Positions 8,860 through 35,797 of a stretch of 64,000 nucleotides of DNA are shown in pieces; positions within the stretch are counted from its first letter, which is position 1; each line of letters begins with the position of its first letter. Source of the DNA: Candidatus Latescibacterota bacterium (GTDB lineage: Bacteria > Latescibacterota > CBDEFO01); contig OZ252149.1 of assembly GCA_965248755.1 (NCBI GenBank), positions 1,888,001-1,952,000 of the forward strand. The letters run 5' to 3'. The notes beneath the pieces were generated by a model. It was not told where the DNA came from, did no database searches, and worked only from the letters and a program-made list of their open reading frames with translations. A program made the translations under genes and the position numbers.

Positions 8860-8901
8860 GTGCGTCCAGTTCATAATGACCCAAACTGAGTAACACCTCA
8901 A

Positions 8902-8951
8902 TGTAGGGGCGATCCCCGATTGACTCAAGCGACGTCCAGTCGCCCCAGGGC
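8902..8951. repeat. REP-like family B (TGTAGGGGCG...CGCCCC)
   Basis: Related copies at ~16121-16192, ~19918-19975, ~35622-35651, ~44696-44720, all intergenic. Confidence 0.65.
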
Positions 8952-9120
8952 AGTCCCGTGTGTCTGCTACCCCCCCTTCATTTCCCCCTTATTAAGGGGG
9001 GATACGGAGGGGTTCGCCCCTCTTCGTCATTACGAGGCTACCTACCCCCGAATTCTGACGCCTACAGAGTAGGCGCTGATTCTATCGGGGACCTACTGTC
9101 TACCAAAAAAGGAGGACCTG

Positions 9121-12530: not shown

Positions 12531-12659
12531 GTGCGTCCAGTTCATAATGACCCAAAGTAACTAACGTTATTGGGAGGCTACCTAACCCCGAATTCTGACG
12601 CCTGCAACGCAGGCGCTGACTCTATCGGGGGCCGCCGTCCACTAAAAAAGGAGGACCTG

Positions 12660-16081: not shown

Positions 16082-16369
16082 CGTCCCTCCCGAAGCAATC
16101 TTCGGATATAACTGACAGATTGTAGGGGCGATCCCCGATTGACTCAATCGACGTCCACTCGCCCCGGGGCAGACACACGGGTCTGCCCCTACAACACATG
16201 TATATAGGACGAACCTATGTGTTCGCCCAGATAGACAAATCATCGCCTCTGAACGCCTCAGCCATTGCGAGGCTACCTACCCCCGAATTCTGACGCCTAC
16301 AGAGTAGGCGCTAATTCTATCGGGGGTTACTGTTTACTGTCTTGCCGTCCACTAAAAAAGGAGGACCTG

Positions 16370-18937: not shown

Positions 18938-19875
18938 GAGCGAAGGCTCTCGTAACTCTTATGTATATCTTGATGGGCATGGCGGTGCAGGAAGACGTCC
19001 TGGCTCGGGCAGATGTCCCGGCGCGGGAAGATGCGGACAAAGTAGAACTGAAGACTCCCCTAAAGACTCCCAATCGCTGCGTTGCGGCCAGCGGCGCCGT
19101 AGGGGTCGCAGACGGTTGGGCCGACCGCATCGACCACACGAAAACCGGTATCCAGCTTGTCCTGATTCCGGCAGGCAGCTTCTCGATGGGCTCAAGGCAG
19201 GCCAGAGGAGGAAACTTCCCCCCACATGAGGTAGATGTCAAATATCCTTTCTATGTAGGTAAGACCGAGGTCACAAACGCCGCTTACCGCAGCTTCCTTG
19301 ATGCAACTTCTTACAACGGGAAAGGGGATACCGACCCGGCCTACGACCTCTATCTTCGCCACTTTCGGGGAAAGAGTCTCATGTCCAGCGACGACGACTA
19401 CCCGATCGTGTGGATAAGCTGGAACAACGCAGTGGCATTCTGCAAATGGGCGGGACTGAAACTCCCTACTGAAGCCCAGTGGGAGTACGCCTGCCGCGCC
19501 GGCACCACCACGCCCTACTACTTTGGCCAAGACGACAAGAACGCCGGCGACTATGGGTGGTCCCATACGAACAGCGAAGCCCTGACCCACCCTGTAGCCC
19601 TGAAGAAGCCCAACGCCTGGGGCCTTTACGACACGCACGGCAATGTCTGGGAATGGGTGGAGGACGATTTCGTGGGGAACTACGATGGCGCCCCTGTTGA
19701 CGGCTCCGCGCTCATAGCGGGCAAGCTGACGAAGGCGCTGCGAGGGGGGTCGTGGAGCAACAATACCAGGTTCTATGTGAGCGGCAGCTCCGGACGCTTT
19801 AACACCGCCCCCGGTAACGCCTCAAACGATGTGGGCTTCAGAGTTGCCCTGCCCATCAACACACCTGCACATTAG
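18934..19875 (+). CDS. FGE-sulfatase domain protein, copy 4
   Basis: GTGA overlap; same motifs (YDTHGN variant) with an N-terminal insertion. Confidence 0.88.
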   Translation: MRAKALVTLMYILMGMAVQEDVLARADVPAREDADKVELKTPLKTPNRCVAASGAVGVADGWADRIDHTKTGIQLVLIPAGSFSMGSRQARGGNFPPHEVDVKYPFYVGKTEVTNAAYRSFLDATSYNGKGDTDPAYDLYLRHFRGKSLMSSDDDYPIVWISWNNAVAFCKWAGLKLPTEAQWEYACRAGTTTPYYFGQDDKNAGDYGWSHTNSEALTHPVALKKPNAWGLYDTHGNVWEWVEDDFVGNYDGAPVDGSALIAGKLTKALRGGSWSNNTRFYVSGSSGRFNTAPGNASNDVGFRVALPINTPAH

Positions 19876-20098: not shown

Positions 20099-21829
20099 AT
20101 GCAATGCAACTATCTTTGCGCCATAAGTATTCTGTTTTGCATGGGGGCCGCTATGTTTGATGCCCCCTCTGCGGCAGAGGAACAGACCGAGATTCTGAAG
20201 ATCACAGTCGGCCAGCCGACCCACCTCAGCCGTCTCGTTTACCAGAACACGGCGTCTGTGATGGTGTCGCGCACGGGCGTCGTGGCGGCGTTCTATCCAA
20301 ATCTGGTGAGCAGGGGTCCGAAGAAATACCGGGTCTCTACCGACGGCGGGCACACATGGAGCCCGGAGATGAAAGGCCCGCCGCAGTTGGGGGGAGGCCA
20401 CGACAGCGGCACACTTCGAGACGGCGGCGTCATCATGGCGACTAACGATCCGCAGCTCTCGGCCAGTGGCAAAGAAGGCTGGTACGACGTCACGTTCGTG
20501 CGCTTTGCGGACGATATGCTCAGCTGGGAGTTCGAACTCGTCCAGATTTACCTGCCCAACGCCGGGCCGACCTCTCTGGACGTTAAAAACCCCGGCCTCT
20601 CAAAGGGCAAGATGGTGCAGCTTCCAAACGGCGACATGCTGGCGCCGATGTACGGAGGCTTCAAAGGCGACAGCGAAAATATCCATCGGGCGATCCTCGT
20701 CCGGTCAACAGATCAGGGACGCACCTGGGAGTTCTACGCCTCGATTGCATATGAGCCGGTGGATCCGCACCCGGAGCTTCCCGGCCAATATTGCGGCGCC
20801 GGAGAACCCAGCATCACGCTGTTGCCCAACGGAAAGATGGTGGCAATGCTGCGTACGCAATATTCGCACTTACCCAGCGAATACAAGCCCATGGCGGTGT
20901 GCTGGTCCGACGATCTGGGAGTGACATGGACTAAACCGGTAACTACCCAGCCGCACCTGTTGAACATCTCGCCAACGCTGGCGGCGCTGGACAACGGTGT
21001 GGTGGCCATCCAGTACGGTCGGCCGGGGTTTCATGTCGCCTTCAGCACGGACGACGGACATACATGGCGCGACCGTGTCAGCTTTTCCCATCTGCCCGAG
21101 CCTTTCATCACGGGTCAGTTCGACATGATCAAAGTCGGCCCCAACGAGCTGGTCGCTATCGGAAGCGACAAGGAAGGTGTGAAGGTGTGGCCGCTATCTG
21201 TTGAAAGGATCATGGTCTCGCCTGCGCGCGTCACTCTGACCGGCCGAGTGGTGGGTGAAGGACTTGCGCCGGTGGTGGGTGCGTTGGTCGAGCGAGGCCC
21301 CAACCGATATACGGCCGACGATTGGCTGGAGCACGCCACCAAATTGGGGCCATGGAAAGCAACCCCACTTACCATCGGCTCTCCGGCACTGGGATACAGA
21401 TCTATCCGAAAGGAGAACGGCTATCCAACAGTGCAGACGGACGAAGAAGGTGAGTTCCGGTTCGAGTCCGTCAAACTCGGCGAATATGTGCTGACAGTTG
21501 AAGCCGAGGGTTACGCCCCCGAGCAACGTCACATCAAGCTGGATCCGGAAGCCAGGCCGGAACACTTCAGGCTCAAGCCAGGGCAGCTCGTGCGCGGAAA
21601 GGTCGTGGATGAGCGCGGTAAAGCGGTAGGCGGCGTCTGCGTCGTGCTGAATCTCTGGCACTGCCATACCGACCCTGACGGATTCTACCACTGGTCGGTC
21701 GAACCCCCCGCGCCGGAGCAGGTGACCATGCGAGTCTACAAGCGGTACAGCGGTCAATACGAGACAGTCAAGGCAACAGTGCCGTTCTCGCAGCTGGAGC
21801 GCCAGCCGATCATTCTGCAGACCAGATAA
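20099..21829 (+). CDS. Exported BNR/Asp-box (sialidase-fold) protein with C-terminal carboxypeptidase-regulatory-like domains, paralogue 1
   Basis: Asp boxes STDGGHTW, STDQGRTW, SDDLGVTW, STDDGHTW; LTGRVV...TDEEGEFRF...GEYVLTVEAEGYAP. Confidence 0.8.
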   Translation: MQCNYLCAISILFCMGAAMFDAPSAAEEQTEILKITVGQPTHLSRLVYQNTASVMVSRTGVVAAFYPNLVSRGPKKYRVSTDGGHTWSPEMKGPPQLGGGHDSGTLRDGGVIMATNDPQLSASGKEGWYDVTFVRFADDMLSWEFELVQIYLPNAGPTSLDVKNPGLSKGKMVQLPNGDMLAPMYGGFKGDSENIHRAILVRSTDQGRTWEFYASIAYEPVDPHPELPGQYCGAGEPSITLLPNGKMVAMLRTQYSHLPSEYKPMAVCWSDDLGVTWTKPVTTQPHLLNISPTLAALDNGVVAIQYGRPGFHVAFSTDDGHTWRDRVSFSHLPEPFITGQFDMIKVGPNELVAIGSDKEGVKVWPLSVERIMVSPARVTLTGRVVGEGLAPVVGALVERGPNRYTADDWLEHATKLGPWKATPLTIGSPALGYRSIRKENGYPTVQTDEEGEFRFESVKLGEYVLTVEAEGYAPEQRHIKLDPEARPEHFRLKPGQLVRGKVVDERGKAVGGVCVVLNLWHCHTDPDGFYHWSVEPPAPEQVTMRVYKRYSGQYETVKATVPFSQLERQPIILQTR

Positions 21830-21957
21830 CTCGACAGCCAGATTTGGCGGTCAAGAAGGCAAAACACCTCTTACCTCCAGTCATTGCGAGGGGACTCGCT
21901 CCGAAGCAATCTCGGAGGAATTGTTCCTTGATTCCTTAGCCGATAGGACCAACAGAT

Positions 21958-23310
21958 ATGAGAGCATGTTCAAAAGTTTTCGTGATTGCATTCCTATCTT
22001 TGTCATTTGCTGGAAGTGCTTTTGCTCAAGATACATCATGGGTAGAAACATTATGGAAAGAAACATTGTGGAAAACAGTAATTGAAAAGGCAATAACACT
22101 CTACCAACAAGGTCAGTATGAGGAAGCAGTTGAGTTTGCCAAAGATGCTTTGAAAATAGCTGAGGAAAGTTTCGGTCCAGACCATCCCGATGTGGCGACC
22201 TCCTTGGACAATCTGGCGGGACTTTATCAAGCTCAGGGCAAGTATGCCGAGGCTGAGCCCCTTCAGAAGCGGGCACTGGCAATATGGGAGAAAGCTCGTG
22301 GAAAAGACCATCCCAGTGTGGCGGCCACCCTGAACAATCTGGCGTTACTTTACCAAACTCAGGGTAAGTATGTCGAGGCTGAGCCGCTTTACAAGCGAGC
22401 ACTGGAAATAGTAGAAAAAGCTCTTGGCCAAGACCATCCCGATGTGGCGACCTCCCTGAACAATCTGGCGGAACTTTACAGAGCTCAGGGCAAGTATGTC
22501 GAAGCTGAGCCCCTATACAAGCGGTCACTGGCAATATGGGAAGAAACCCTTGGCCAAGACCATCCTGATGTGGCTTACTCCCTGAGCGGTCTGGCGTTAC
22601 TTTACCAAGCCCAGGGCAAGTATGCCGAAGCTGAGCCGCTGTACAAGACAGCACTGGCAATAAGGGAAGAAGTCCTTGCCAAAGATCACCCCTATGTGGC
22701 GACTTCCCTGAACAATCTGGGGGCACTTTACCAAGCTCAGGGCAAGTATGCCGAGGCTGAGCCCCTGTACAAGAGAGCACTGGCAATATTGGAAAAAGCC
22801 CTTGGAAAAGACCATCCCGATGTGGCGCAATCCTTGAACAATCTGGCGTTACTTTATAAGACTCAGGGCAACTATGTCGAGGCTGAGCCCCTTTATAAGC
22901 GGTCACTGGCAATAATAGAAAAAGGCCTTGGAAAAGACCACCCCGATGTGGCGCAATTCCTGAACAATCTGGCGACACTGTATCATTCCCAGGGCAAGTA
23001 TGTCGAGGCTGAGCCCCTTCTCAAGCAAGCCTTGACAATATACGAGAAGGTCCTTGGAAAAGACCACCCCGATGTGGCGACCTCCGTAAATAATCTGGCG
23101 GAACTTTACAGAGCTCAGGGAAAGTATGCTGAAGCTGAGCCCCTTTACAAGCGGTCACTGGCAATATGGGAAAAAGCTCTTGGAAAAGACCATCCGCACG
23201 TGGCGACTGTGCTGGAGAATATGGTGGAGCCTTACGAGAAGATTGGAAAGGAAGATGAAGCCAAAAGTTTGGAAGAGCGTGCAGAAGGAATTCGTTCAAG
23301 AAACCAGTAA
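21958..23310 (+). CDS. Secreted 42-aa TPR (kinesin-light-chain-like) protein 1; 8 internal repeats
   Basis: Signal peptide AFA-Q, N-cap, 8 x HPxVAxSLNNLAxLYxxQGKY..., 39-aa C-cap ending RSRNQ. Confidence 0.95.
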   Translation: MRACSKVFVIAFLSLSFAGSAFAQDTSWVETLWKETLWKTVIEKAITLYQQGQYEEAVEFAKDALKIAEESFGPDHPDVATSLDNLAGLYQAQGKYAEAEPLQKRALAIWEKARGKDHPSVAATLNNLALLYQTQGKYVEAEPLYKRALEIVEKALGQDHPDVATSLNNLAELYRAQGKYVEAEPLYKRSLAIWEETLGQDHPDVAYSLSGLALLYQAQGKYAEAEPLYKTALAIREEVLAKDHPYVATSLNNLGALYQAQGKYAEAEPLYKRALAILEKALGKDHPDVAQSLNNLALLYKTQGNYVEAEPLYKRSLAIIEKGLGKDHPDVAQFLNNLATLYHSQGKYVEAEPLLKQALTIYEKVLGKDHPDVATSVNNLAELYRAQGKYAEAEPLYKRSLAIWEKALGKDHPHVATVLENMVEPYEKIGKEDEAKSLEERAEGIRSRNQ

Positions 23311-23415
23311 TGGCAATGCTGCCATCTTTTTCCCGCCGTGGTGAACGTGAACAGCAACGACAGCAATCTCGCAGGAACTCTTCGTTGATTCCTTGAACCG
23401 AAGGGAACACCAGAT

Positions 23416-25242
23416 ATGAAAGTATTTTCAAAAGTTTTCGTGATTGCATCCCTATGTTTGTCGTTTGCCGCAACTGCTTTTCCCCAAGAAACATCATGGG
23501 AAACACTAAACAAAAAGGTAACAAGACTCTACCAACAAGGTCGGTATGAGGAAGGTGTTAAGTTTGCCAAAGAGGCTTTGAAAATAGCTGAGGAAGCTTT
23601 CGGTCCAGACCATCCCCGTGTGGCAACCTCTCTGAACGCTCTGGCGTTACTTTATGATTCCCAGGGCAAGTATGTCGAAGCTGAGCCCCTTAACAAGCGA
23701 GCACTGGAAATAAGGGAAGAAGCCCTTGGAAAAGACCATCCTGCAGTGGCGCAATCCCTGAACAATCTGGCAGAGGTTTATCATTCTCAGGGCAAGTATG
23801 TCGAAGCTGAGCCCCTTCATAAGCACGCACTGGAAATAAGGGAAGAAGCCCTTGGAAAAGACCATCCCAATGTGGCGACCTCCCTGAACAATCTCGCGGG
23901 ACTCTACAAAGTGCAGGGCAAGTATGTCGAAGCTGAGCATCTTTATGAGCGGGCACTGGCAATATGGGAAAGAGCCCTTGGAAAAGACCATCCCAGAGTG
24001 GCGACCTCCCTGAACAATCTGGCATTGCTTTATAATACCCAGGGAAAGTATGCCGAGGCTGAGCCGCTTTACAAGCGAGCACTGACAATAAAGGAAGAAG
24101 CTCTTGGAAAAGACCATCCCTATGTGGCGACCTCCCTGAACAATCTGGGGAAACTTTATCATTCGCAGGGCAAGTATGTCGAGGCAGAACCTCTTTATAA
24201 GCGGTCATTGGCAATAGTAGAAAAAGCTCTTGGGAAAGACCATCCCTATGTAGCGCAATCCCTGAACAATCTGGCGGCACTTTACCAAGCTAATGGCAAG
24301 TATGCCGAGGCTGAGCCCCTTAACAAGCGGGCACTGGCAATATGGGAAAAAGCTCTTGGAAAAGATCATCCCGATGTGGCGACCTCACTGAACAATCTGG
24401 CGGAACTTTACAGAACTCAGGGCAGGTATATCGAGGCTGAGCCACTTTACAAGCGGTCACTGGCAATAGATGAGAAGGCACTTGGGAAAGACCATCCCAG
24501 TGTAGCAACCTCGCTGAACAATCTGGCGGGACTTTACAGAGATCAGGGAAAGCATGCCGATGCTGAGCCACTTTACAAGCGAGCACTGGCAATAAGGGAA
24601 GAAGCTCTTGGAAAAGACCATCCCGACATGGCGCAAGCCCTGCACAATCTGGCAGATCTTTACAGGTCTCAGCGCAAGTATGTGGAGGCTGAGCGACTTT
24701 ACAAGCGAGCACTGGCAACATACGAGAAGACCCTTGGAAAAGACCATCCTGGGGTGGCGACAGCCCTGGGTAATCTGGCGAACCTTTACAAGTCTCAGGG
24801 CAAGCATGTCGCGGCTGAGCCCCTTTACAAGCGGTCAATTGCAATATACGAGAAAGTCCTTGGAAAAGACCATCCCGAAGTTGCGACATCCCTGAACGAT
24901 CTGGCGGGACTTTACGAAGCCCAGGGTAAGTATGCCGATGCTGAGCCACTTTACAAGCGAGCACTGGCAATATACGAGAAATTTCTTGGAAAAGACCATC
25001 CCTATGTGGCGACATCCCTGCACAATCTGGCTGGACTTTACACGGCTCAGGGCAAGTATGTCGAGGCTGAGTCTCTTTACAAGAGAGCGCTGGAAATAAT
25101 CGAGAAAGCCCTTGGAAAAGACCACCCCAACCTGGCGACTACCCTCGCGAACATGGCAGATCTTTACAAGAAGATTGGAAAGAATGACGAAGGGAAAAGG
25201 TTGGAAGAGCGTGCAGAAGGTATTCGTTCAAGAAACCAATGA
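23416..25242 (+). CDS. TPR protein 2; 12 internal repeats
   Basis: 65 + 12x42 + 39 = 608 aa; signal FAATAFPQ. Confidence 0.95.
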   Translation: MKVFSKVFVIASLCLSFAATAFPQETSWETLNKKVTRLYQQGRYEEGVKFAKEALKIAEEAFGPDHPRVATSLNALALLYDSQGKYVEAEPLNKRALEIREEALGKDHPAVAQSLNNLAEVYHSQGKYVEAEPLHKHALEIREEALGKDHPNVATSLNNLAGLYKVQGKYVEAEHLYERALAIWERALGKDHPRVATSLNNLALLYNTQGKYAEAEPLYKRALTIKEEALGKDHPYVATSLNNLGKLYHSQGKYVEAEPLYKRSLAIVEKALGKDHPYVAQSLNNLAALYQANGKYAEAEPLNKRALAIWEKALGKDHPDVATSLNNLAELYRTQGRYIEAEPLYKRSLAIDEKALGKDHPSVATSLNNLAGLYRDQGKHADAEPLYKRALAIREEALGKDHPDMAQALHNLADLYRSQRKYVEAERLYKRALATYEKTLGKDHPGVATALGNLANLYKSQGKHVAAEPLYKRSIAIYEKVLGKDHPEVATSLNDLAGLYEAQGKYADAEPLYKRALAIYEKFLGKDHPYVATSLHNLAGLYTAQGKYVEAESLYKRALEIIEKALGKDHPNLATTLANMADLYKKIGKNDEGKRLEERAEGIRSRNQ

Positions 25243-25346
25243 TGGCAATGCTGCCATCTGTTTCCCGCCGTGGTGAACGTTAACAGCAACGACGGCAATC
25301 TCGGAGGAATTGTTCCTTGATTCCTTAGCCGATAGGAACAACAGAT

Positions 25347-26420
25347 ATGAGAGCATTTTCAAAAGTTTTCGTGATTGCATCCCTATGTTTGACCTTTGCC
25401 GCAAACTGCTCTTCCCCAGAAAGATCTGAATGGGAAAGACTAAACGAAAAGGCAGAAAGCCTCTACGAACAAGGTAGATATGAGGAAGCAGTTAAGTTTG
25501 CCAAAGAGGCTTTGCAAATAGCTGAGGAAAGTTTCGCTCCAGACCATCCCGAGGTGGCATTCCCCCTGAACAATCTGGCGGTACTATATAAGACTCAGGG
25601 CAAGTATGTCGAGGCTGAGCCACTTTATGAGCGAGCACTGGCAATTAGGGAAGAAGCCTTTGGAAAAGACCATCCCGATGTGGCGCAATCCCTGAACAAT
25701 CTGGCGGTACTTTATGATTCGCAGGGCAAGTATGCCGAGGCTGAGCCCCTTTACAAGCGGTCACTCGCAATATGGGAAAAAGCCCTTGGCAAAGACCATC
25801 CAGGTGTGGCAACCTCCCTGAACAATCTGGCGGTACTTTATGATTCGCAGGGCAAGTATGCCGAGGCTGAACCCCTTTATAAGCGTTCACTGGCAATATT
25901 GGAAGAAGCCCTTGGAAAAGACCATCCCGATGTGGCGCAATCTCTGAATAATCTGGCGTTACTTTATAAGACTCAGGGCAACTATGTCGAGGCTGAGCCC
26001 CTTTACAAGAGGTCACTGGCAATATTGGAAAAAGCCCTTGGAAACGATCACCCGTATGTGGCGACTTCCCTGAACAATCTGGCGGAACTTTACAGAACTC
26101 AGGGCAAGTATGACGACGCTGAGCCCCTTCATAAGCGAGCACTGGCAATAGGGGGAAAAACCCTTGGGAAAGACCACCCTGATGTCGCTAACTCCCTGAA
26201 CAATCTGGCGGCACTTTATTATTCTCAGGGCAAGTATGATGAGGCTGAGCCCCTTTACAAGCGAGCACTGGCAATAATGGAAAAAGCTCTTGGTAAAGCT
26301 CATCCTGATGTGGCGGATGTGTTGGAGAATATGTCAGAGCTTTACGAGAAGATTGGAAAGGAAGATGAAGCCAAAAGGTTGGAAGGGCGTGCAAGAGGAA
26401 TTCGTTCAAGAAACCAGTGA
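25347..26420 (+). CDS. TPR protein 3; 6 internal repeats; possible lipoprotein
   Basis: 66 + 6x42 + 39 = 357 aa; signal FAANCSS. Confidence 0.95.
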   Translation: MRAFSKVFVIASLCLTFAANCSSPERSEWERLNEKAESLYEQGRYEEAVKFAKEALQIAEESFAPDHPEVAFPLNNLAVLYKTQGKYVEAEPLYERALAIREEAFGKDHPDVAQSLNNLAVLYDSQGKYAEAEPLYKRSLAIWEKALGKDHPGVATSLNNLAVLYDSQGKYAEAEPLYKRSLAILEEALGKDHPDVAQSLNNLALLYKTQGNYVEAEPLYKRSLAILEKALGNDHPYVATSLNNLAELYRTQGKYDDAEPLHKRALAIGGKTLGKDHPDVANSLNNLAALYYSQGKYDEAEPLYKRALAIMEKALGKAHPDVADVLENMSELYEKIGKEDEAKRLEGRARGIRSRNQ

Positions 26421-26526
26421 TGGCAATGCGGCCATCTGTTTCCCGCAGTTATGAACGTGAACAGCAACGACGGCAATGTGAGCAGGAATTCTTCCTTGAT
26501 TCCTTGAACCGAAGGGAACACCAGAT

Positions 26527-27978
26527 ATGAGAGTATTTTCAAAAGTTTTCGTGATTGCATCCCTATGTTTGTCGTTTGCCGCAACTGCTTTTCCCCAAGA
26601 AACATCTGAATGGGAAAGACTAAACGAAAAGGCAACAACACTCTACGAACAAGGACAGTATGAGGAAGCGGTTAAGTTTGCCAAAGAGGCTTTGAAAATA
26701 GCTGAGGAAACTTTCGGTCCAGACCATCCCGATGTGGCGACCTCCCTGAACAATCTGGCGGAGTTTTACAGAACTCAGGGCAAGTATGTCGAGGCTGAGC
26801 CTCTTCACAAGCGGTCACTGGCAATAAGGGAGAAAGCCCTTGGCAAAGACCATCCTGATGTGGCGAACTCCCTGAACAATCTGGCGGGACTTTATGATTC
26901 ACAGGGCAAGTATGCCGAGGCTGAGCCACTTTACAAGCGGTCACTGGCAATAAGGGAGAAAGCCCTTGGCAAAGACCATCCTGATGTGGCGAACTCCCTG
27001 AACAATCTGGCGGGACTTTATGATTCACAGGGCAAGTATGTCGAGGCTGAGCCTCTTCACAAGAGGTCACTGGCAATAAGGGAGAAAGCCCTTGGCAAAG
27101 ACCATCCTGATGTGGCGACCTCCCTGAACAATCTGGGGGGACTTTATAAAACTCAGGGCAAGTATGTCGAGGCTGAACCGCTTTACAAGCGAGCACTGGC
27201 AATAGTAGAAAAAGCTCTTGGCAAAGGCCACCCCTATGTGGCGACCTCCCTGAACAATCTGGCGTTACTTTATGATTCTCAGGGCAAGTATGCCGAGGCT
27301 ATTCCCCTTCACAAGCGGGCACTGGCAATAAGGGAAGAAACCCTTGGCAAAGACCATCCCGATGTGGCGAACTCCCTGAACAATCTGGCGTTACTTTATG
27401 ATTCTCAGGGCAAGTATGCCGAGGCTGAACCGCTTTACAAGCGAGCACTGGCAATAGTAGAAAAAGCTCTTGGCAAAGACCACCCCTATGTGGCATTCCC
27501 CCTGAACAATCTGGCGTTACTTTATGATTCTCAGGGCAAGTATGCCGAGGCTGAACCGCTTTACAAGCGAGCACTGGCAATAAGGGAAGAAACCCTTGGG
27601 AAAGACCATCCCGATGTGGCGCAATCCCTGAACAATCTGGCGGAACGTTTCAGAACTCAGGGCAAGTATGCCGAAGCTGAACCCCTTTACAAGCGAGCAC
27701 TGGCAATATACGAGAAAGCTCTTGGGAAAGACCATCCCGATGTGGCGACCTCCCTGAACAATCTGGGGGGACTTTATAAAACTCAGGGCAAGTATGCTGA
27801 GGCTGAGCCCCTTGTTAAGCGAGCACTGGCAATAGTAGAAAAAGCTCTTGGGAAAGACCATCCGCACGTGGCGACTGTGCTGGAGAACATGGCAGTGTTC
27901 TACATAGAGATTGGAAAGGAAGATGAAGCAAAAAGGTTGGGGGAACGTGCACAAGGAATTCGTTCAAGAAACCAGTGA
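26527..27978 (+). CDS. TPR protein 4; 9 internal repeats
   Basis: 66 + 9x42 + 39 = 483 aa; signal FAATAFPQ. Confidence 0.95.
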   Translation: MRVFSKVFVIASLCLSFAATAFPQETSEWERLNEKATTLYEQGQYEEAVKFAKEALKIAEETFGPDHPDVATSLNNLAEFYRTQGKYVEAEPLHKRSLAIREKALGKDHPDVANSLNNLAGLYDSQGKYAEAEPLYKRSLAIREKALGKDHPDVANSLNNLAGLYDSQGKYVEAEPLHKRSLAIREKALGKDHPDVATSLNNLGGLYKTQGKYVEAEPLYKRALAIVEKALGKGHPYVATSLNNLALLYDSQGKYAEAIPLHKRALAIREETLGKDHPDVANSLNNLALLYDSQGKYAEAEPLYKRALAIVEKALGKDHPYVAFPLNNLALLYDSQGKYAEAEPLYKRALAIREETLGKDHPDVAQSLNNLAERFRTQGKYAEAEPLYKRALAIYEKALGKDHPDVATSLNNLGGLYKTQGKYAEAEPLVKRALAIVEKALGKDHPHVATVLENMAVFYIEIGKEDEAKRLGERAQGIRSRNQ

Positions 27979-28082
27979 TGGCAATGCGGCCATCTGTTTC
28001 CCGCAGTGGTGAACGTGAACGGCAACGACGGCAATCTCGGAGGAATTGTTCCTTGATTCCTTAGCCGATAGGAGCACCAGAT

Positions 28083-29030
28083 ATGAGAGTATTTTCAAAA
28101 GTTTTCGTGATTCCATTCCTATGTTTGACCTTTGCCGCAAACTGCTCTTCCCCAGAAACATCTGAATGGGAAAGACTAAACGAAAAGGCAACAAGCCTCT
28201 ACCAACAAGGTCAGTATGAGGAAGCAGTTAAGTTTGCCAAAGAGGCTTTGAAAATAGCTGAGGAAAGTTTCGGTCCAGACAAGCCCAATGTGGTGCAATC
28301 CCTGAACAATCTGGCGAGACTTTATTATTCTCAGGGCAAGTATGCCGAGGCTGAACCCCTTTACGCGCGAGCGCTGGCCATAGAGGAAGAAGCCCATGGA
28401 AAAGACCATCCCCACGTGGCCGCCTCCTTGAACAATCTGGCGGCACTTTATTATTCCCAGGGCAAGTATGCCGAGGCTGAACCCCTTTACGCGCGAGCGC
28501 TGGCCATAGAGGAAGAAACCCTTGGAAAAGAACATCCCGATGTGGCGACCTCCCTGAACAATCTGGGGGCACTTTACAGAGCTCAGGGCAAGTATGTCGA
28601 GGCTGAGCCCCTTTACAAGCGTTCACTGGCAATAAGGAAAAAAGCACTTGGCAAAGACCACCCTGATGTAGCGCAATTCCTGAACAATCTGGCGGAACTT
28701 TACAAAGCTCAGGGCAAGTATGTCGAGGCTGAGCCCCTTTATCAGCAAGCACTGGCAATAGTAGAAAAAGCTCTTGGAAAAGACCATACCAATGTGGCGT
28801 TCTGCCTGCTCGGTCTGGCGGAACTTTACAAAGACCAAAACAAGTATGCTGAGGCTGAGCCCTTTTTCAAGAGAGCACTGGCAATATACGAGAAGGCCCT
28901 TGGGAAAGACCATACCGATGTGGCGACTGTGTTGGAGAATCTGGCGGAGTGTTACAGGGAAATTGGAAAGGAAGATGAAGCCAAAAGGTTGGAAGAGCGT
29001 GCAGAAGGAATTCGTTCAAGAAACCAATGA
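28083..29030 (+). CDS. TPR protein 5; 5 internal repeats; possible lipoprotein
   Basis: 66 + 5x42 + 39 = 315 aa; signal FAANCSS. Confidence 0.95.
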   Translation: MRVFSKVFVIPFLCLTFAANCSSPETSEWERLNEKATSLYQQGQYEEAVKFAKEALKIAEESFGPDKPNVVQSLNNLARLYYSQGKYAEAEPLYARALAIEEEAHGKDHPHVAASLNNLAALYYSQGKYAEAEPLYARALAIEEETLGKEHPDVATSLNNLGALYRAQGKYVEAEPLYKRSLAIRKKALGKDHPDVAQFLNNLAELYKAQGKYVEAEPLYQQALAIVEKALGKDHTNVAFCLLGLAELYKDQNKYAEAEPFFKRALAIYEKALGKDHTDVATVLENLAECYREIGKEDEAKRLEERAEGIRSRNQ

Positions 29031-29135
29031 TGGCAACAGCGCCGTTCCCGCAACTGGAGCGCCAGGCGATCATCCTACAGAACAAATAACTCGATAGCCA
29101 GATTTGGCGGTCAAGAAGTACTGAAAGGAAGTGAC

Positions 29136-30842
29136 ATGCGATGCAACTATCTTTGCGCCATAGGTATTCTGTTTTGCATCGGGGGTGCCGCTGTGTTTGA
29201 TGTCCCCAATGCGGCAGAGGATGAAACCGAAATCCTCAAGATCACCGTCGGTAAGCCGACCCAGCTCAGCGATGAGGTTAATCAGAATACCGCGAGCGTG
29301 GCGGTCTCACGTACAGGGACGATCGCTGTATTCTATCCCAAGCAGGGCGAAGGGGCTAAGTACTATCGCATTTCAAACGACGGCGGTCAGACCTGGGACA
29401 AGGAACTGGACTTCCCTCCCGCATATGCAGGCCCCATGTCTGTAGACCTCCGCGAAGGTGGGGTCCTTTTTATGCAGCGCAAATCAAGGCACGAGCTAGA
29501 AGCCCAGCGCATACTCTTCTCTGACGATTTCCTGAAGTATGAAGTTGGCACCTCAGCGGTGTCCGTGCCAAATGCGGTTCTGCAAACGAAGTGGGCAGAG
29601 TTTTGGCCTTTCTTGGCCAAGGGAAAGATAGTCCAGTTGCCTAACGGTGATTTGCTGGGCACCATGTACGGGAACCTCAAAGGCGATACCCAGTATCGCA
29701 CCATGATCGCGCTATCCACGGACTTGGGCCGCAGTTGGGAGTATCATGCCACCGTTGCCTATAGCCCAGACGACCCGGATCCGGAATTGGCTGGCGGATA
29801 TTGTGGTTATTGCGAGCCAAGCCTGGCTTTACTATCCAACGGGCAACTCTTGTGCATAATGAGGACACAGGGAACGCAGTTTCCCGGCGAATATCGGCCA
29901 CTGTACCAGTGCTGGTCAGACGATCTAGGCAAGACATGGACCGAGCCAGTACTGAGCGAGCCGCACTTGATGAATATCTCGCCGACGCTGGCGGTATTGG
30001 ATAACGGCGTGCTGGCCTGTCAGTACGGCCGGCCAGGATTTCACGTTGCGTTCAGTCTGGACAATGGCCACACGTGGCAGGACCGCGTCAGCTTCTCGCA
30101 TCTGCCATGCGGTGTCATCACTGGCCAGTTTGACATGATCAAAGTCGGTCCGAACCGATTGTTGGCTATCGGGAATGATTCCGAAGGCACGAAGGTATGG
30201 CCATTGTCCGTTGACCGCGTGAAGGTATTAACCACCCACGGACGTCTTCATGGTCGTGTATTGGATGAACAGGGTAATCCGATTGCCAGTGCAGCGATCG
30301 AGCGCAGCCCCAACCGTTACACCGCCGACGACTGGCTGGATCACGAATCCAAGTTGGACTGGTGGGGAGCCGGGACTCCCGTGACGGTCGGTTCACCCAG
30401 CTTGGGATTCAGATCTATTCGACAGGGAAACGGCCATCCGACGGTGAAGTCGGATACAGAGGGTCGATTTGATTTTCATGATGTGCCATTGAGCGAATAC
30501 GTGTTGACCGTGGAAGCCGATGGTTACGCGCCTCAACAACGACACGTCAACATTCGGCCGCAGTCTCGGTCGCAGGATTTCAAACTCAAGACGGGCCGGC
30601 TTGTGCGCAGCCAGGTTGTGGATGAAACGGGCCGGGGGATTCCAGGGATATGTGTGATACTCAACAGATGGCACGTCCACACAGATCGAGCTGGCTACTT
30701 CCACTGGTCAGTAGAGTTTCCGCTGCCGCAGCAGGTGGAAATGAAGATCTACAAGCGGTACAGCGGTCAGTACGAGACATTGGAAACTACGGTCGCCCTA
30801 GCGCAGATCGAACGTCAGCCGATCACCTTGAAGAACAGATAA
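29136..30842 (+). CDS. BNR/sialidase-fold protein, paralogue 2
   Basis: Asp boxes SNDGGQTW, STDLGRSW, SDDLGKTW, SLDNGHTW; collinear with 20099-21829 and the same ACTGAAAGGAAGTGACATG leader. Confidence 0.8.
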   Translation: MRCNYLCAIGILFCIGGAAVFDVPNAAEDETEILKITVGKPTQLSDEVNQNTASVAVSRTGTIAVFYPKQGEGAKYYRISNDGGQTWDKELDFPPAYAGPMSVDLREGGVLFMQRKSRHELEAQRILFSDDFLKYEVGTSAVSVPNAVLQTKWAEFWPFLAKGKIVQLPNGDLLGTMYGNLKGDTQYRTMIALSTDLGRSWEYHATVAYSPDDPDPELAGGYCGYCEPSLALLSNGQLLCIMRTQGTQFPGEYRPLYQCWSDDLGKTWTEPVLSEPHLMNISPTLAVLDNGVLACQYGRPGFHVAFSLDNGHTWQDRVSFSHLPCGVITGQFDMIKVGPNRLLAIGNDSEGTKVWPLSVDRVKVLTTHGRLHGRVLDEQGNPIASAAIERSPNRYTADDWLDHESKLDWWGAGTPVTVGSPSLGFRSIRQGNGHPTVKSDTEGRFDFHDVPLSEYVLTVEADGYAPQQRHVNIRPQSRSQDFKLKTGRLVRSQVVDETGRGIPGICVILNRWHVHTDRAGYFHWSVEFPLPQQVEMKIYKRYSGQYETLETTVALAQIERQPITLKNR

Positions 30843-30888
30843 CTCGATAGCCAGATTTTCCACCGAAGAAGTACTGAAAGGAGTTGAT

Positions 30889-32763
30889 ATGCAATCCAAC
30901 CACTCTGTGACAAGCCGTGCTGGGGATGTGGATCCAGGCGCTCAACTGGTTGAGGAACTCCTGGCGCACCGCAGAACCGAAAAAGCGCGCTGGCAACCTA
31001 TGAGCTTTGATCTGGAGGATATGGCGATCCTCTCGTTGAATGCCTACACCCGTGCTCTGGATGAGAATTCAGATTACCTGCTGTGGATGGCGGCTTGGTA
31101 TGACCGCAGGCCGCTGGCCCAGCGGCATACACATAGCGACGGCAATCAGATGCCTAAGTACGCAGAAGGGATCGCCCTGATGCGCCTGATGACCGGCAGC
31201 ACGATGAACCGTGAAATCGATGCTAAGATATGGAAATGGATCGACGACCGTACCGGGGAAGACGGCCTGATTTACAAGCAACCGGGCCAGGCCGACGCGT
31301 ACGGTAATGGCAGAGCACTGCTGGCCCGCATCCTTGAGTACCGCTTGAGCGGTTCAGCCGGACAGCCAGATGCCATAGAAAAAACGATCGACACGCTGTG
31401 GGACAAGGTCTATGTGCAAGGTGATCGCGATGCGCCGGACAGCTATTGCATTTTCCCACGAGTCTGGGACGGCGGCTCGCAGGTCAATGCAGATACGGCG
31501 GACTGGCCTATCTATAACGCCTCGCTCATCCCTCCCATGGTCAAGTGGTACGAGATGACCGGCAGCGCCAGGGCATTGGAGCTGGCGCGATGGATGACCA
31601 ACAGTATTCTGCGCGGTGGCGAGATTGAAGAAGATGGCTCGTGGCAGGGCTGGTTCCATCCTTTCGTACACGCCGGAATGGCGATGCTTGAGTATGCCCG
31701 GGTGACTAAAGACGAAGTCTTATGCAAAAGGATGCGGGGCTTCTATGAAAGTGGGCGTAGCCAGGGAACGAGCCATGGTGTTTTTCCCGAACAGCCCGCC
31801 GGACTATGGGTTTCGAATATCGGCAATGAGGGATGCTGTACGGTGGATATGTGCAACATGGCGGCAACGCTTTCCCGCGCGGGTCTGGGCGATTATTGGG
31901 ACGATGTGGATCGCTATCTGAGGAATCAATTGACCGAGGCTCAGATGAAGAGAACCGATTTCCTCGAGCGGATTCCGAAAAGCAATATCGTCCACATTCC
32001 AATTCGCCCCGAGCTTCAGGAGGCGGAAATAGAGGATTTCACGCGGTACATCGGATCGCTGTCAGGGTGGGCAGCGCCAAACGATTATGCCAGCGCGGCC
32101 CATTTGTGGTTGCAGCAATGCTGTACGGGAAACATCGGGCGGGCGATTTATGCGGGCTTTGAGAGCATCGTCACACGGGAGGATAATCTCCATAAGATCA
32201 ATCTCCTCATCAACCGATCAACCAAGGAATTGGATATTGACAGCTATCTGCCTTGGGAGGGAAAGGTGGTTGTCAGTGTGAAGCACCCGGTCAAATTGGC
32301 CGTCCGCATGCCGCATTACGTGGCCCTTCAGGACGTCGTCACAAAGTTAAATGGCATGGCCATCAATCGGTCACTTTCCTGGAACGGAAGATATGTCCAA
32401 TTCTCCTGTAAGGCAGGGGACACAATCGAACTGCTCTTTGAGGTGCCTGAATACACACAAACGTTTGGGTGGCCCGGCCGTCCCGAACTCGTCCTGAAAC
32501 ATTCCATTACCGACGAGAATAGCGGCGGCGGAATGGAAAATCCTCGGACAGTTCTCGAAGCGAATAAGAACCCTGAATTGGTTAAAGAATTACTGGAGCC
32601 CGTTGAGTACAAGATTACGTATCGTGGAAACACGGTAGTGGACATTGACCCAAATGGGGCGATCTATCCGATCTACGAGCGCGATCACATGCGACTCGGA
32701 AAAGCTCCGATAAGCCGGTATGAACGATTCGTACCAACAGAGGATCTGGTCAATTGGCCTTGA
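30889..32763 (+). CDS. GH127/GH146-like (alpha/alpha)6 protein
   Basis: EGCC and QQCCTGN Cys motifs, YWDDVDRYLRNQL, SYLPWEGKV..LAVRMP C-terminal sandwich. Confidence 0.55.
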   Translation: MQSNHSVTSRAGDVDPGAQLVEELLAHRRTEKARWQPMSFDLEDMAILSLNAYTRALDENSDYLLWMAAWYDRRPLAQRHTHSDGNQMPKYAEGIALMRLMTGSTMNREIDAKIWKWIDDRTGEDGLIYKQPGQADAYGNGRALLARILEYRLSGSAGQPDAIEKTIDTLWDKVYVQGDRDAPDSYCIFPRVWDGGSQVNADTADWPIYNASLIPPMVKWYEMTGSARALELARWMTNSILRGGEIEEDGSWQGWFHPFVHAGMAMLEYARVTKDEVLCKRMRGFYESGRSQGTSHGVFPEQPAGLWVSNIGNEGCCTVDMCNMAATLSRAGLGDYWDDVDRYLRNQLTEAQMKRTDFLERIPKSNIVHIPIRPELQEAEIEDFTRYIGSLSGWAAPNDYASAAHLWLQQCCTGNIGRAIYAGFESIVTREDNLHKINLLINRSTKELDIDSYLPWEGKVVVSVKHPVKLAVRMPHYVALQDVVTKLNGMAINRSLSWNGRYVQFSCKAGDTIELLFEVPEYTQTFGWPGRPELVLKHSITDENSGGGMENPRTVLEANKNPELVKELLEPVEYKITYRGNTVVDIDPNGAIYPIYERDHMRLGKAPISRYERFVPTEDLVNWP

Positions 32764-33029
32764 AGGAGCAGTGGGAGAAGATCAATAACGTTGAACAGAG
32801 TCATTCTAAAACTCTTCTTCTACGCCTGACGGCGAATGATTCTATCGGGGCTTCATCCCTCTGGTCATTCTGAGGGGCTTCTTCCCTCTTTCTCAAGAGG
32901 GGCTTCACCCCGAAGCAAGCCCGCCTCTTACCTTGGCCCAGACTGAGCAACGTCATTGCGAGGCACTTCACCCCGAAGCAATCTCGGAGGAATTGTTCCT
33001 TGATTCCTTAGCCGATAGGAACACCAGAT

Positions 33030-35489
33030 ATGAGAGTATTTTCAAAAGTTTTCGTGATTGCATCCCTATCTTTGACCTTTGCCGTAAACTGCATTTCCCC
33101 AGAAAGATCTGAATGGGAAAGACTAAACGAAAAGGCAGAAAGCCTCTACGAACAAGGTCAGTATGAGGAAGCAGTTAACTTTGCCAAAGAGGCTTTGAAA
33201 ATAGCTGAGGAAAGTTTCGGTACAGACCATCCCAATGTGGCGACCTGCCTTAACAATCTAGCATACCTTTATCATTCCCAGGGCAAGTATGCTGAGGCTG
33301 AGCCCCTTTATAAGCGGTCACTGGCAATAAGGGAAAAAGCTCTTGGCAAAGACCATCCTGATGTGGCGGCATCCCTGAACAATCTAGCGGGACTTTATGA
33401 ATCTCAGGGCAAGTATGCCGAGGCTGAGCCCCTTTACAATCGGTCACTGGCAATAGTAGAAAAAGCTCTTGGCAAAGACCACCCCGATGTGGCGTCCCCC
33501 CTGAACAATCTGGCGGAACTTTACAGAGCTCAGGGCAAGTATGCCGAGGCTGAGCCCCTTAACAAGCAGGCACTGGCAATATGGGAAAAAGCCCTTGGAA
33601 AAGACCATCCCGATGTGGCGACCTCCCTGAACAATCTGGCGGTACTTTATGATTCCCAGGGCAAGTATGCCGACGCTGAACACCTTTATATGCGGGCACT
33701 GGCAATAATGGAAAAAGCCCTTGGCAAAGACCACCCTGATGTGGCGACCTCCCTGAACAATCTGGCGGAACTTTACAGAGCTCAGGGCAAGTATGTCGAG
33801 GCTGAGCCCCTTTACAAGCAGTCACTGGCAATATGGGAGAAAGCTCTTGGGAAAGAGCATCCCAGTGTGGCGACCTCCCTGAACAATCTGGCGTTACTTT
33901 ATGATTCCCAGGGCAAGTATGCCGGGGCTGAACCACTTTACAAGCGGGCACTGGCAATAAGGGAAAAAGCCCTTGGAAAAGACCATCCCAGTGTGGCGAC
34001 CTCCCTGAACAATCTCGCGGTACTATATAAGACCCAGGGCAAGTATGTCGAAGCTGAGCCCCTTCACAAGCGGTCACTGGCAATAAGGGAAGAAGCTCTT
34101 GGAAAAGACCATCCCGATGTGGCGACCTCCCTGAACAATCTGGCGGTACTTTATAAGACCCAGGGCAAGTATGTCGAGGCTGAGCCCCTTTATGAGCGGG
34201 CACTGGGAATATGGGAAGAAGCCCTTGGCAAAGACCATCCTGATGTAGCTTACTCCCTGAACAATCTGGCGGGTCTTTATAAGACCCAGGGCAAGTATGC
34301 CGAGGCTGATCCGCTTTACAAGCAGTCACTGGCAATAGTAGAAAAAGCCCTTGGAAAAGACCACCCTGATGTAGCTTACTCCCTGGACAATCTGGCGGGA
34401 CTTTATAAGACCCAGGGCAAGTATGCCGAGGCTGATCCGCTTTACAAGCAGTCACTGGCAATAAGGGAAGAAGCTCTTGGAAAAGACCATCCCGATGTAG
34501 CGCAATCCCTGAACAATCTAGCAAACCTTTATCGTTCCCAGTGGAAGTATGTCGAAGCTGGGCCACTTTACAAGCGATCACTGGCAATAAGGGAAGAAGT
34601 CCTTGGAAAAGACCATCCCGATGTAGCGCAATCCCTGAACAATCTGGCGGCACTTTATCATTCTCAGGGCAAGTATGCCGACGCTGAGCCCCTGCACAAG
34701 CGTGCTCTGACAATAATAGAGAAAACCCTTGGCAGAGACCATCCCCATGTGGCGGCCTCTTTGAACTGTCTGGCGGAACTTTATAAGACTCAGGCCAAGT
34801 ATGTCAAAGCTGAACCCCTTGTCAAGCGGTCACTGGCAATTTTGGAAAAATCCTTTCGCAAAGATCATCCTGCTATGGCAACCTCCCTGAATAATCTGGC
34901 GCTAGTTTATGCTTCTCAGGGCAAGTACGTCGAGGCTGAGCCTCTTTATAAGCGGGCACTGGCAATGAGGGAAGAAGTCCTCGGGCCAGACCACCCCCAT
35001 GTCGCGCAATGCCTGAGCAACCTGGGGGAACTTTATGATTCCCAGGGCAAGAATGCTGAGGCTGAGCCCCTTCTGAAGCGAGCACTGGGAATAAGGGAAG
35101 AAGCTCTTGGCAAAGACCATCCCTATGTGGCGACCTCCCTGAACAATCTAGCAAACCTTTATCGTTCCCAGGGCAAGTATGCCGAGGCTGAGCCACTTTA
35201 CAAACGGGCACTGGCAATATACGAGAAAGCTCTTGGAAAAGACCATCCCAAAGTAGCTTACTCCCTTAGCGGTCTAGCGGAACTTTACAAAGATCAGGGC
35301 AAGTATGTCGATGCTGAGCCCCTTCTGAAGCGAGCACTGGGAATAAGGGAAGAAGCTCTTGGCAAAGACCATCCCTATGTGGCGACTGCGTTGGAGAATA
35401 TGGCAGTGCTCTACATAGAGATTGGAAAGGAAGATGAAGCCAAAAGGTTGGGGGAACGTGCAGAAGGAATTCGTTCAAGAAACCAATGA
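33030..35489 (+). CDS. TPR protein 6; 17 internal repeats; possible lipoprotein
   Basis: 66 + 17x42 + 39 = 819 aa; signal FAVNCIS. Confidence 0.95.
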   Translation: MRVFSKVFVIASLSLTFAVNCISPERSEWERLNEKAESLYEQGQYEEAVNFAKEALKIAEESFGTDHPNVATCLNNLAYLYHSQGKYAEAEPLYKRSLAIREKALGKDHPDVAASLNNLAGLYESQGKYAEAEPLYNRSLAIVEKALGKDHPDVASPLNNLAELYRAQGKYAEAEPLNKQALAIWEKALGKDHPDVATSLNNLAVLYDSQGKYADAEHLYMRALAIMEKALGKDHPDVATSLNNLAELYRAQGKYVEAEPLYKQSLAIWEKALGKEHPSVATSLNNLALLYDSQGKYAGAEPLYKRALAIREKALGKDHPSVATSLNNLAVLYKTQGKYVEAEPLHKRSLAIREEALGKDHPDVATSLNNLAVLYKTQGKYVEAEPLYERALGIWEEALGKDHPDVAYSLNNLAGLYKTQGKYAEADPLYKQSLAIVEKALGKDHPDVAYSLDNLAGLYKTQGKYAEADPLYKQSLAIREEALGKDHPDVAQSLNNLANLYRSQWKYVEAGPLYKRSLAIREEVLGKDHPDVAQSLNNLAALYHSQGKYADAEPLHKRALTIIEKTLGRDHPHVAASLNCLAELYKTQAKYVKAEPLVKRSLAILEKSFRKDHPAMATSLNNLALVYASQGKYVEAEPLYKRALAMREEVLGPDHPHVAQCLSNLGELYDSQGKNAEAEPLLKRALGIREEALGKDHPYVATSLNNLANLYRSQGKYAEAEPLYKRALAIYEKALGKDHPKVAYSLSGLAELYKDQGKYVDAEPLLKRALGIREEALGKDHPYVATALENMAVLYIEIGKEDEAKRLGERAEGIRSRNQ

Positions 35490-35797
35490 TGGCAACAGCG
35501 CCGTTCTCAGAGCTGGAAAGACAGCCGATCATCCTGCAGAACAGATAACTCCACAGACAGACATAGTCCGCCGCATCTCTACGGGAAGTCCCCGAGTGCT
35601 TCTATCGGGGACGTGTGCCTACCCCTGGGGCGAGTGAACCTCGCCCCTACATTCTATCTACTCAAAAGAGATTGCTTCGCTTCGCTCGCAAGGACAATTC
35701 ATTTTACCAAGGTCATTGCGAGGGGGCCTGCCCCGGAATGATTGATCCCCGAGCCCCCCGATAGATTCAATCGGGGGTTAAGTCGCAATCTCGCCGC

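What the first reader, a model, noticed from the sequence alone, without database searches (positions are those of the whole stretch)
21958..35489. Natural 'binder library': six exported N-cap/(42-aa TPR)n/C-cap genes with 57 shuffled, position-specifically variable repeats
Seen: six intact genes share a signal peptide, N-cap and 39-aa C-cap (RSRNQ) but carry 8, 12, 6, 9, 5 and 17 exact 126-bp modules with no other domain. The framework is nearly fixed, while positions 3, 6, 13, 16, 17, 28 and 35 (counting HP as 1-2) take many residues. Rare variants recur in different genes at different ranks: KTQGNY (gene 1 r6, gene 3 r4), VAYSLSGLA (gene 1 r4, gene 6 r17), VAFPL (gene 3 r1, gene 4 r7), VAQFL (gene 1 r7, gene 5 r4). 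Adjacent duplications also occur (gene 4 r2-3, gene 5 r1-2, gene 6 r9-10). Known: TPR helix-A residues line the ligand groove, and cap/variable-module/cap is the design of lamprey VLRs and engineered DARPin/alphaRep binders. Inference: a recombination-diversified extracellular recognition repertoire. No dedicated recombinase is visible here.
Basis: partly seen in the sequence, partly recalled or inferred. Interest (0 to 1): 0.85.

Follow-up and report, generated by a model that had tools for sequence, protein, structure and literature searches.

The report
Shuffling family of exported TPR binders
An uncultured bacterium carries a row of genes for exported proteins built only of interchangeable binding repeats, and these repeats are swapped between genes and selected to differ in their binding groove; fungi and algae evolve immune-type sensors the same way, but nothing yet shows what these proteins bind or that they are reshuffled on demand.

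Summary
In detail: six intact genes with 8/12/6/9/5/17 exact 126-bp units of the kinesin-light-chain-type 42-aa TPR (Pfam TPR_10/TPR_12), and a seventh copy elsewhere in the genome. Units do not group by gene (p=0.34) and show more homoplasy than clonal simulations. At the four groove positions taken from the TPR literature, replacement diversity is 1.8 times synonymous diversity, and 2.3 times in a sister species. That species has 2 genes at this locus instead of 6, about 6 where this genome has 1, and no shared repeat order, although flanking genes are close. So recombination and groove-directed selection are supported. Against the 'library' headline: the same positions vary in 118 of 118 other proteins of this repeat type; the same architecture occurs as single genes in other lineages; neighbouring unrelated genes are amplified too; 4 of 11 sister-species copies look broken; there is no surface-export tail, no diversifying reverse transcriptase, no within-population test and no known ligand. 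Best reading: a slowly evolving, recombination-shuffled repertoire of probably periplasmic peptide binders, an effector-less bacterial variant of the fungal and brown-algal TPR sensor arrays.

The parts
21958..23310 (+). TPR gene 1, 450 aa: signal peptide, N-cap with a short internal duplication, 8 units (22183-23190), C-cap
23416..25242 (+). TPR gene 2, 608 aa, 12 units (23611-25122)
25347..26420 (+). TPR gene 3, 357 aa, 6 units (25545-26300); Cys-bearing signal variant; folded model pLDDT 95
26527..27978 (+). TPR gene 4, 483 aa, 9 units (26725-27858); units 2 and 3 differ at 4 of 126 bases
28083..29030 (+). TPR gene 5, 315 aa, 5 units (28281-28910); Cys-bearing signal variant
33030..35489 (+). 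TPR gene 6, 819 aa, 17 units (33228-35369); Cys-bearing signal variant
23311..23415 (+). Spacer between genes 1 and 2; homologous spacers at 25243-25346, 26421-26526, 27979-28082. C-cap + spacer + N-cap blocks of about 420 bp are 86-91% identical and offer homology for unequal crossing-over (inferred)
20099..21829 (+). Flanking BNR-repeat + CarboxypepD_reg gene with a hydrophobic N-terminus; same position next to the TPR genes in the sister species
29136..30842 (+). Second BNR + CarboxypepD_reg paralog, inside the array
30889..32763 (+). 624-aa gene with no Pfam, NCBIfam or PDB sequence match; ortholog in the sister species has pS 0.033
29031..29102 (+). Remnant resembling the 3' end of the BNR gene behind gene 5; another copy at 35490-35561 behind gene 6, a trace of segmental duplication

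Best explanation
A lineage-specific multigene family of Sec-exported, effector-less solenoid proteins made only of 42-aa kinesin-light-chain-type TPR units. Shown: the anatomy, mixing of units across genes, turnover of gene number and repeat order between sister species, and an excess of replacement diversity at groove positions. Inferred: ordinary homologous recombination (unequal crossing-over and short gene conversion between about 80%-identical units and between cap-spacer-cap blocks) does the mixing over evolutionary time, without a dedicated enzyme, while selection keeps the groove varied. Inferred, least certain: the proteins sit in the periplasm or envelope and bind extended peptides of changing foreign proteins (incoming toxins, phage proteins or competitors' enzymes) and act by sequestering them, since they carry no catalytic or signalling domain.
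For: Within-gene vs between-gene unit distance 24.57 vs 24.78 nt, p=0.34. Tree star-like, 7 of 54 inner branches starred, no gene one clade in any of 200 bootstrap trees. Consistency index 0.263 vs 0.339 +/- 0.013, minimum 0.310, in 60 clonal simulations. Distance-dependent incompatibility in the 68 sister-species units, p=0.0005 in 5 of 6 settings and 0.0035 in the sixth. Unit positions 6, 13, 16, 17 equal TPR 2, 9, 12, 13 (offset from the TPR_1 match), listed as concave ligand-contact positions in PMC1261162. There pN 0.551 vs overall pS 0.303 (57 units) and 0.599 vs 0.258 (68 units); eight helix-B positions that I chose as presumed exposed controls give 0.138 and 0.112. First/second-base heterozygosity 0.53 vs 0.23 at 16 fourfold sites (p=0.002) and 0.61 vs 0.19 (p=0.0003). 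Ratio above 1 in 16 of 16 genes of the two species with at least 4 scored units, 1.40-4.43. Orthologous loci: 6 vs 2 genes and 1 vs about 6; no in-register conservation; 0 shared seven-site signatures among 55 and 66; nearest cross-species unit differs by 10 nt or more while the 624-aa neighbour has pS 0.033.
Against: The groove-over-control contrast is seen in 118 of 118 other proteins with at least 6 units, 55 of them as strongly as here, so it is a family trait. Groove pN stays mostly near 0.4-0.65 whatever pS is, and the ratio is 0.87-1.33 in 9 of 13 outside genes: this fits selection against homogenisation as well as an arms race. Most groove residues are shared between the species, so the vocabulary is old and limited. 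In the window itself the distance test is not significant for framework sites (p=0.69, 0.50) and significant only with all sites (p=0.0025, 0.044); long identical tracts are mostly within genes (4 of 5 at 60 nt or more); 20 of 57 nearest neighbours are in the same gene vs about 10 expected; 3 of 15 gene pairs keep weak colinearity at p<0.05 uncorrected. Flanking ortholog pS ranges up to 0.25, which weakens the 'faster than neighbours' argument. 4 of 11 sister-species copies are broken and 6 of 10 N-caps there lack the signal peptide. No toxin gene or ligand was seen near any locus examined; expression and location are untested.
Confidence: 0.58

Rival explanations
1. Generic scaffold or chaperone: the proteins bind a fixed or broad class of envelope peptides, groove variety is kept only because a uniform groove works or folds badly, and copy number rises and falls with a duplication-prone region.
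For: Same variable positions in 118 of 118 other proteins; groove pN nearly constant across genes with very different pS; shared residue vocabulary between species; five tandem DUF6259 + FGE-sulfatase pairs at 86-94% identity and two BNR paralogs next door; in the sister species the amplified unit includes pieces of flanking genes.
Against: A fixed ligand predicts conserved repeat order between orthologs, which is absent. Solved consensus TPR proteins exist (listed; that their repeats are identical and stable is recalled), so uniform grooves can fold. All six window genes stay intact and in frame over 57 units.
Confidence: 0.27
2. Neutral amplification and decay: no selection for diversity; variable sites are merely tolerant surface positions.
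For: Broken and signal-less copies in the sister species; neighbouring genes amplified too; an earlier AI note on the sister array reached this view (e1-1438224).
Against: Tolerant sites cannot exceed the synonymous level, yet groove sites do so about twofold in both species and in 16 of 16 genes; presumed exposed helix-B sites stay far lower. Caveat: only 16 fourfold sites serve as the neutral yardstick and they range 0.04-0.63.
Confidence: 0.09
3. Programmed library (VLR- or DGR-like): a dedicated enzyme rearranges or mutates units within a lineage's lifetime.
For: Cap/module/cap design, exact 126-bp modules, mixing across genes.
Against: No silent cassette store: all strong unit matches in the complete genome lie in the seven genes. 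The two reverse transcriptases found match a type II-A retron and DRT8. Asn codons at positions 9 and 10, which adenine-directed mutagenesis would be expected to hit (recalled DGR property), are mostly conserved. Units differ by about 20% on average, which points to long evolution.
Confidence: 0.06

Closest known systems
Fungal NLRs with highly conserved TPR repeats (Dyrka et al. 2014, PMC4986451; passages read); Podospora TPR-like repeat structures 4y6w/4y6c
   Same: TPR arrays modelled on kinesin light chain, high internal conservation, repeat-number polymorphism, positively selected sites on the concave face, proposed concerted evolution within and between genes.
   Different: Those are intracellular sensors fused to a NACHT/NB-ARC switch and an effector; here there is no other domain and there is a signal peptide, in a bacterium.
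Ectocarpus NB-ARC-TPR genes (Zambounis et al. 2012, PMC3341825; abstract, passages and section 22 read)
   Same: 42-aa TPR modules, birth and death of genes, module order not conserved between paralogs, diversifying selection; that paper already draws the comparison with jawless-fish receptors.
   Different: Modules are exons shuffled among introns in a eukaryote and fused to NB-ARC; here they are contiguous coding repeats.
Helicobacter pylori slr (Sel1-like repeat) family (PMC1941758; abstract read)
   Same: Lineage-specific bacterial expansion to eight or nine secreted helical-repeat proteins with positive selection on surface residues.
   Different: Different repeat type; host-associated pathogen; the abstract does not describe unit-level shuffling between genes.
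Xanthomonas TALE families (PMC5512977; abstract read)
   Same: Bacterial multigene family with fixed ends and a variable number of repeats that vary at set positions; evolves by substitution, recombination and repeat deletion.
   Different: TALEs bind DNA by a known code and are delivered into plant cells; here the ligand is presumably peptide and unknown.
Tandem immunity-gene strings esaG and tipC (PMC9484751; abstract and outline read)
   Same: Tandem non-identical paralogs gained, lost and recombined through conserved homology blocks.
   Different: Those have known cognate toxins; none was seen here, and esaG variation is not described there as repeat-modular.
Kinesin light chain TPR domain and bacterial Bklc (PDB 7ai4, 6fv0, 5o01; PMC5372463 seen as search listing only)
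   Same: Same 42-aa repeat; E 4e-67 by sequence; 44-53% identity in the top structural matches; KLC entries bind cargo peptides.
   Different: Single conserved genes with fixed partners; no repertoire.

Membership tests
42-aa KLC-type TPR proteins (Pfam TPR_10/TPR_12) | Profile match above cut-off with 42-residue period | tested here: met
   Genes 1 and 6 scanned (2 of 6): TPR_12 608 and 1009 bits, TPR_10 468 and 900 bits; period 42 in all six
42-aa KLC-type TPR proteins (Pfam TPR_10/TPR_12) | Helix-pair solenoid fold like kinesin light chain | tested here: met
   Gene 3 model, pLDDT 95.2, 16 helices; top nine Foldseek hits are KLC TPR domains
Internally conserved, concertedly evolving TPR arrays (fungal HiC type) | High identity between repeats (85% over 100 aa in PMC4986451) | tested here: inconclusive
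   Mean identity over all unit pairs is 73.9%; close adjacent units exist but the published criterion was not computed
Internally conserved, concertedly evolving TPR arrays (fungal HiC type) | Positive selection on concave-face positions | tested here: met
   Diversity-based pN/pS 1.8 and 2.3 at TPR 2, 9, 12, 13; no likelihood codon model was run
Internally conserved, concertedly evolving TPR arrays (fungal HiC type) | Repeat-number polymorphism between individuals of one species | tested here: inconclusive
   Only short-read contigs were available; differences shown only between sister species
NLR / STAND receptors | NACHT or NB-ARC domain with an effector | tested here: not met
   Caps and units account for every residue; no such Pfam match among those listed
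VLR-like programmed repertoire | Incomplete germline gene plus silent donor cassettes | tested here: not met
   All strong unit matches lie in seven intact genes
VLR-like programmed repertoire | Cell-to-cell variation generated by a dedicated enzyme | not testable with these tools
   No raw long reads listed
Diversity-generating retroelement target | DGR reverse transcriptase and a template repeat; adenine-specific changes | tested here: not met
   Two RVT_1 matches, best PADLOC hits retron II-A and Drt8; no separate template; Asn codons conserved
Lipoproteins | Canonical lipobox with G/A/S before Cys | tested here: not met
   Genes 3, 5, 6 and the seventh copy have Asn before Cys; in a crude screen 23 of 34 candidates had G/A/S and the 4 with Asn were these genes
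Tandem orphan immunity arrays | A cognate toxin that the proteins neutralise | not testable with these tools
   No toxin gene recognised among the window genes scanned; binding untested

The most novel reading that the evidence does not exclude
These genes form a bacterial envelope-level recognition repertoire: effector-less TPR solenoids whose unit order varies among cells of a natural population through ordinary recombination, selected to neutralise changing foreign proteins; in effect a natural counterpart of engineered repeat-protein libraries that has expanded more than once in Latescibacterota (a separate cluster exists in G045).
Probability: 0.2. Interest if true: 0.8.

Novelty: new variant of a known kind. 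Interest (0 to 1): 0.46.

Why it matters
Shuffled 42-aa TPR arrays under groove selection are known as sensor domains of fungal and brown-algal NLR-type proteins. Here the same dynamics act on stand-alone exported proteins of a bacterium, with no switch or effector, so any benefit must come from binding alone. Two near-complete sister genomes with about 130 units make the open question of what such arrays recognise testable, and the fixed caps plus 126-bp module are a ready natural scaffold for binder engineering. The interest is limited by the generic nature of the variable positions and by the lack of a ligand.

Tried and rejected
Within-population variation: 4 of 10 listed runs were laid (X1, X5, X7, X9); all are short contigs that break in the arrays, and the unit-to-unit joints have sides of 21-37 bases at 90% likeness, so I drew nothing from them. 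The one long joint (32842 to 21084, 89 letters between, in X5 and X7) equals the sister-species arrangement, not a new allele. No RNA holder listed. DGR origin rejected. Assembly artefact unlikely: all 57 units differ and X1 pieces match exactly. Long inter-gene conversion tracts: longest 62 nt, reached once in 40 column-shuffled nulls, so little support for recent long tracts. N-cap vs C-cap distance correlation among the six genes rho 0.22, p=0.33: low power, not used as proof. Lipoprotein reading: not canonical. Promoter-like hits (31 vs 10.6 expected) are mostly one antisense motif copied with the unit and were not taken as evidence. The 624-aa gene gave no family or structure match by sequence. 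No complex prediction was run because no partner is proposed. Variable sites could not be mapped on model coordinates; numbering from the Pfam match and literature was used instead. Literature searches for a bacterial exported TPR repertoire returned 0 papers at 5 of 6 terms; two searches returned only general symbiont repeat-protein papers. These are narrow searches of an open-access library, and no supplements were read.
Full report
Observation. The seven most variable positions are the ones named. The shared rare variants and adjacent duplications are all present. Two unrelated genes sit between genes 5 and 6, and a seventh paralog with 8 units lies about 0.95 Mb away; no other strong unit match exists in the single-contig genome. 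The three best hits of the C-cap in the genome collection are titled Candidatus Latescibacterota, which gives the likely phylum.

What the proteins are. The unit is the kinesin-light-chain-type TPR (Pfam TPR_10/TPR_12; genes 1 and 6 scanned). Gene 3 folds as an all-helical solenoid (pLDDT 95.2) whose best sequence and structure matches are KLC TPR domains. Each gene starts with a basic-then-hydrophobic leader that reads as a Sec signal (by eye; no predictor was run). Genes 3, 5, 6 and the seventh copy have a Cys near the cleavage region that arose from a compensated one-base insertion and deletion, but Asn precedes it, unlike 23 of 34 lipoprotein-like candidates in a crude genome screen, so lipidation is doubtful. 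The chain is helical to its end, with no sorting domain, so the periplasm is the default location (inference). 'Extracellular' is not shown.

Are the variable sites the binding sites? The TPR_1 match gives an offset of four, so unit positions 6, 13, 16, 17 are TPR 2, 9, 12, 13. PMC1261162 (passages) lists 2, 5, 9, 12, 13, 33, 34 as the most variable, concave-face positions. TPR 5 (unit 9) is mostly Asn here. Positions 3, 28 and 35 are not on that list; 28 and 35 fall on helix B in the model and remain unmapped.

Selection. Using the four literature positions, pN is 0.551 against overall pS 0.303 in the 57 window units and 0.599 against 0.258 in 68 sister-species units (72 scored; 4 with stops left out, as were units with indels); eight presumed exposed helix-B positions of my choosing give 0.138 and 0.112. 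First and second codon bases are more heterozygous than 16 fourfold sites (0.53 vs 0.23, p=0.002; 0.61 vs 0.19, p=0.0003); adding TPR 5 lowers this to p=0.011 and 0.001. The ratio exceeds 1 in 16 of 16 genes of the two species with at least four scored units. These are diversity ratios, not a likelihood test, and the neutral yardstick is small and uneven. In 13 outside genes the ratio was 0.87-1.33 in 9 and 1.6-3.2 in 4, with groove pN similar nearly everywhere. So selection keeps the groove varied while the framework is homogenised; an arms race is one reading, selection against uniform grooves another.

Recombination. Units are no closer within genes than between them (24.57 vs 24.78 nt, p=0.34). 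The tree is star-like and needs 32 label changes against 34.8 shuffled. Homoplasy exceeds all 60 clonal simulations (0.263 vs 0.339 +/- 0.013). A distance-dependent incompatibility test is significant in the sister species in all six settings, but in the window only with all sites, not with framework sites. Recent events are mostly within genes: 20 of 57 nearest neighbours against about 10 expected, and 4 of 5 identical tracts of 60 nt or more. Three of 15 gene pairs keep weak colinearity before correction. No dedicated enzyme is needed: units are about 80% identical and cap-spacer-cap blocks 86-91%. The genome's two reverse transcriptases match a retron and DRT8.

Turnover between species. 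G001, the only same-genus genome among the 40 relatives searched, has two TPR genes (8 and 9 units) beside the same BNR and 624-aa genes, about six copies where this genome has its single seventh gene, and three more at two other loci. Of 11 copies, 4 are intact with a signal, 3 intact without one and 4 broken; some breaks could be sequencing errors. No repeat order is shared, none of the seven-site signatures is shared (55 and 66 distinct), yet most single residues are. Flanking orthologs have pS 0.03-0.25.

How special is it? The groove-over-control contrast holds in 118 of 118 database proteins with six or more units, 55 as strongly as here; 19 of 118 have units as alike as here (the best 120 of 1584 hits were examined). 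The signal/N-cap/units/C-cap layout occurs in other lineages: 9 of 120 short homologs had N-cap plus units only, 5 with a signal by my rough rule, some partial; single genes of 3, 5 and 9 units in three other genomes; four more of 4-9 units in other families of the phylum, and a separate four-gene cluster of related TPR genes in G045, with different caps and some C-terminal extensions. The window also holds five tandem DUF6259 + FGE-sulfatase pairs, so the region duplicates readily.

Comparison. It works like the TPR sensor arrays of fungal NLRs (PMC4986451, passages) and Ectocarpus NB-ARC-TPR genes (PMC3341825, abstract, passages, section 22), but it is not an NLR. Among bacteria the H. pylori slr family, TALEs and esaG strings (abstracts) each share part of the picture. 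Sponge-associated Latescibacterota are reported as TPR-rich (PMC12993501, two passages). VLR, DARPin and alphaRep designs are recalled, apart from the ankyrin library passage. I found no paper on an exported, effector-less 42-aa TPR repertoire in bacteria, a weak negative.

Verdict. Real, under selection and shuffled, but on an evolutionary timescale and with a family-generic pattern. Most likely a repertoire of periplasmic peptide binders (0.58); scaffold with neutral copy-number change (0.27); neutral decay (0.09); programmed library (0.06). New variant of a known kind; interest 0.46.

Noticed in passing
window 5278-19875: Five tandem pairs of a DUF6259 (glycoside-hydrolase-like) gene and an FGE-sulfatase-domain gene, about 3.6 kb per unit, 86-94% identical; the first and fourth large genes look nearly identical in protein.
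   Followed up: partly
window 13-4808: A primase-polymerase/D5-type gene appears split by a DDE_Tnp_1_4 transposase gene on the opposite strand; likely a decayed mobile element at the edge of the region.
   Followed up: no
window 25386-25442, 28122-28178, 33069-33125: A compensated +1/-1 indel rewrites the signal-peptide cleavage region and creates a Cys in genes 3, 5 and 6; the variant also exists in the seventh copy and in the sister species.
   Followed up: partly
window 22000-35400, minus strand: A sigma-70-like motif recurs antisense in many TPR units (31 hits vs 10.6 expected); probably just copied with the unit.
   Followed up: no
L020:1387-3273 (G000:C1:3730098-3733640): Type II-A retron-like pair (RT and NDT-type effector); the RT frame ends at an insertion-sequence-like element.
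   Followed up: partly
L021:775-2298: DRT8-type defence reverse transcriptase.
   Followed up: partly
window 44899-45900: AbiTii-domain gene.
   Followed up: no
window 30889-32763: 624-aa gene with no Pfam, NCBIfam or PDB sequence match, 97% identical in the sister species.
   Followed up: partly
L040:6485-15290 and L042:6735-8240 (G045): Independent cluster of four 42-aa TPR genes (about 18, 4 in a broken copy, 10 and 13 units) plus a dispersed colinear copy with 9 units; groove pN/pS near 1.
   Followed up: partly
L041:6277-11196 (G050): A 6-unit TPR gene whose leader resembles the window genes' leader, next to a TPR protein with a long C-terminal domain; groove ratios 2.8 and 3.2.
   Followed up: partly
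window 21880-21957 and 32952-33029: Copies of a dispersed genomic repeat lie just upstream of genes 1 and 6 and run into the shared leader region.
   Followed up: no
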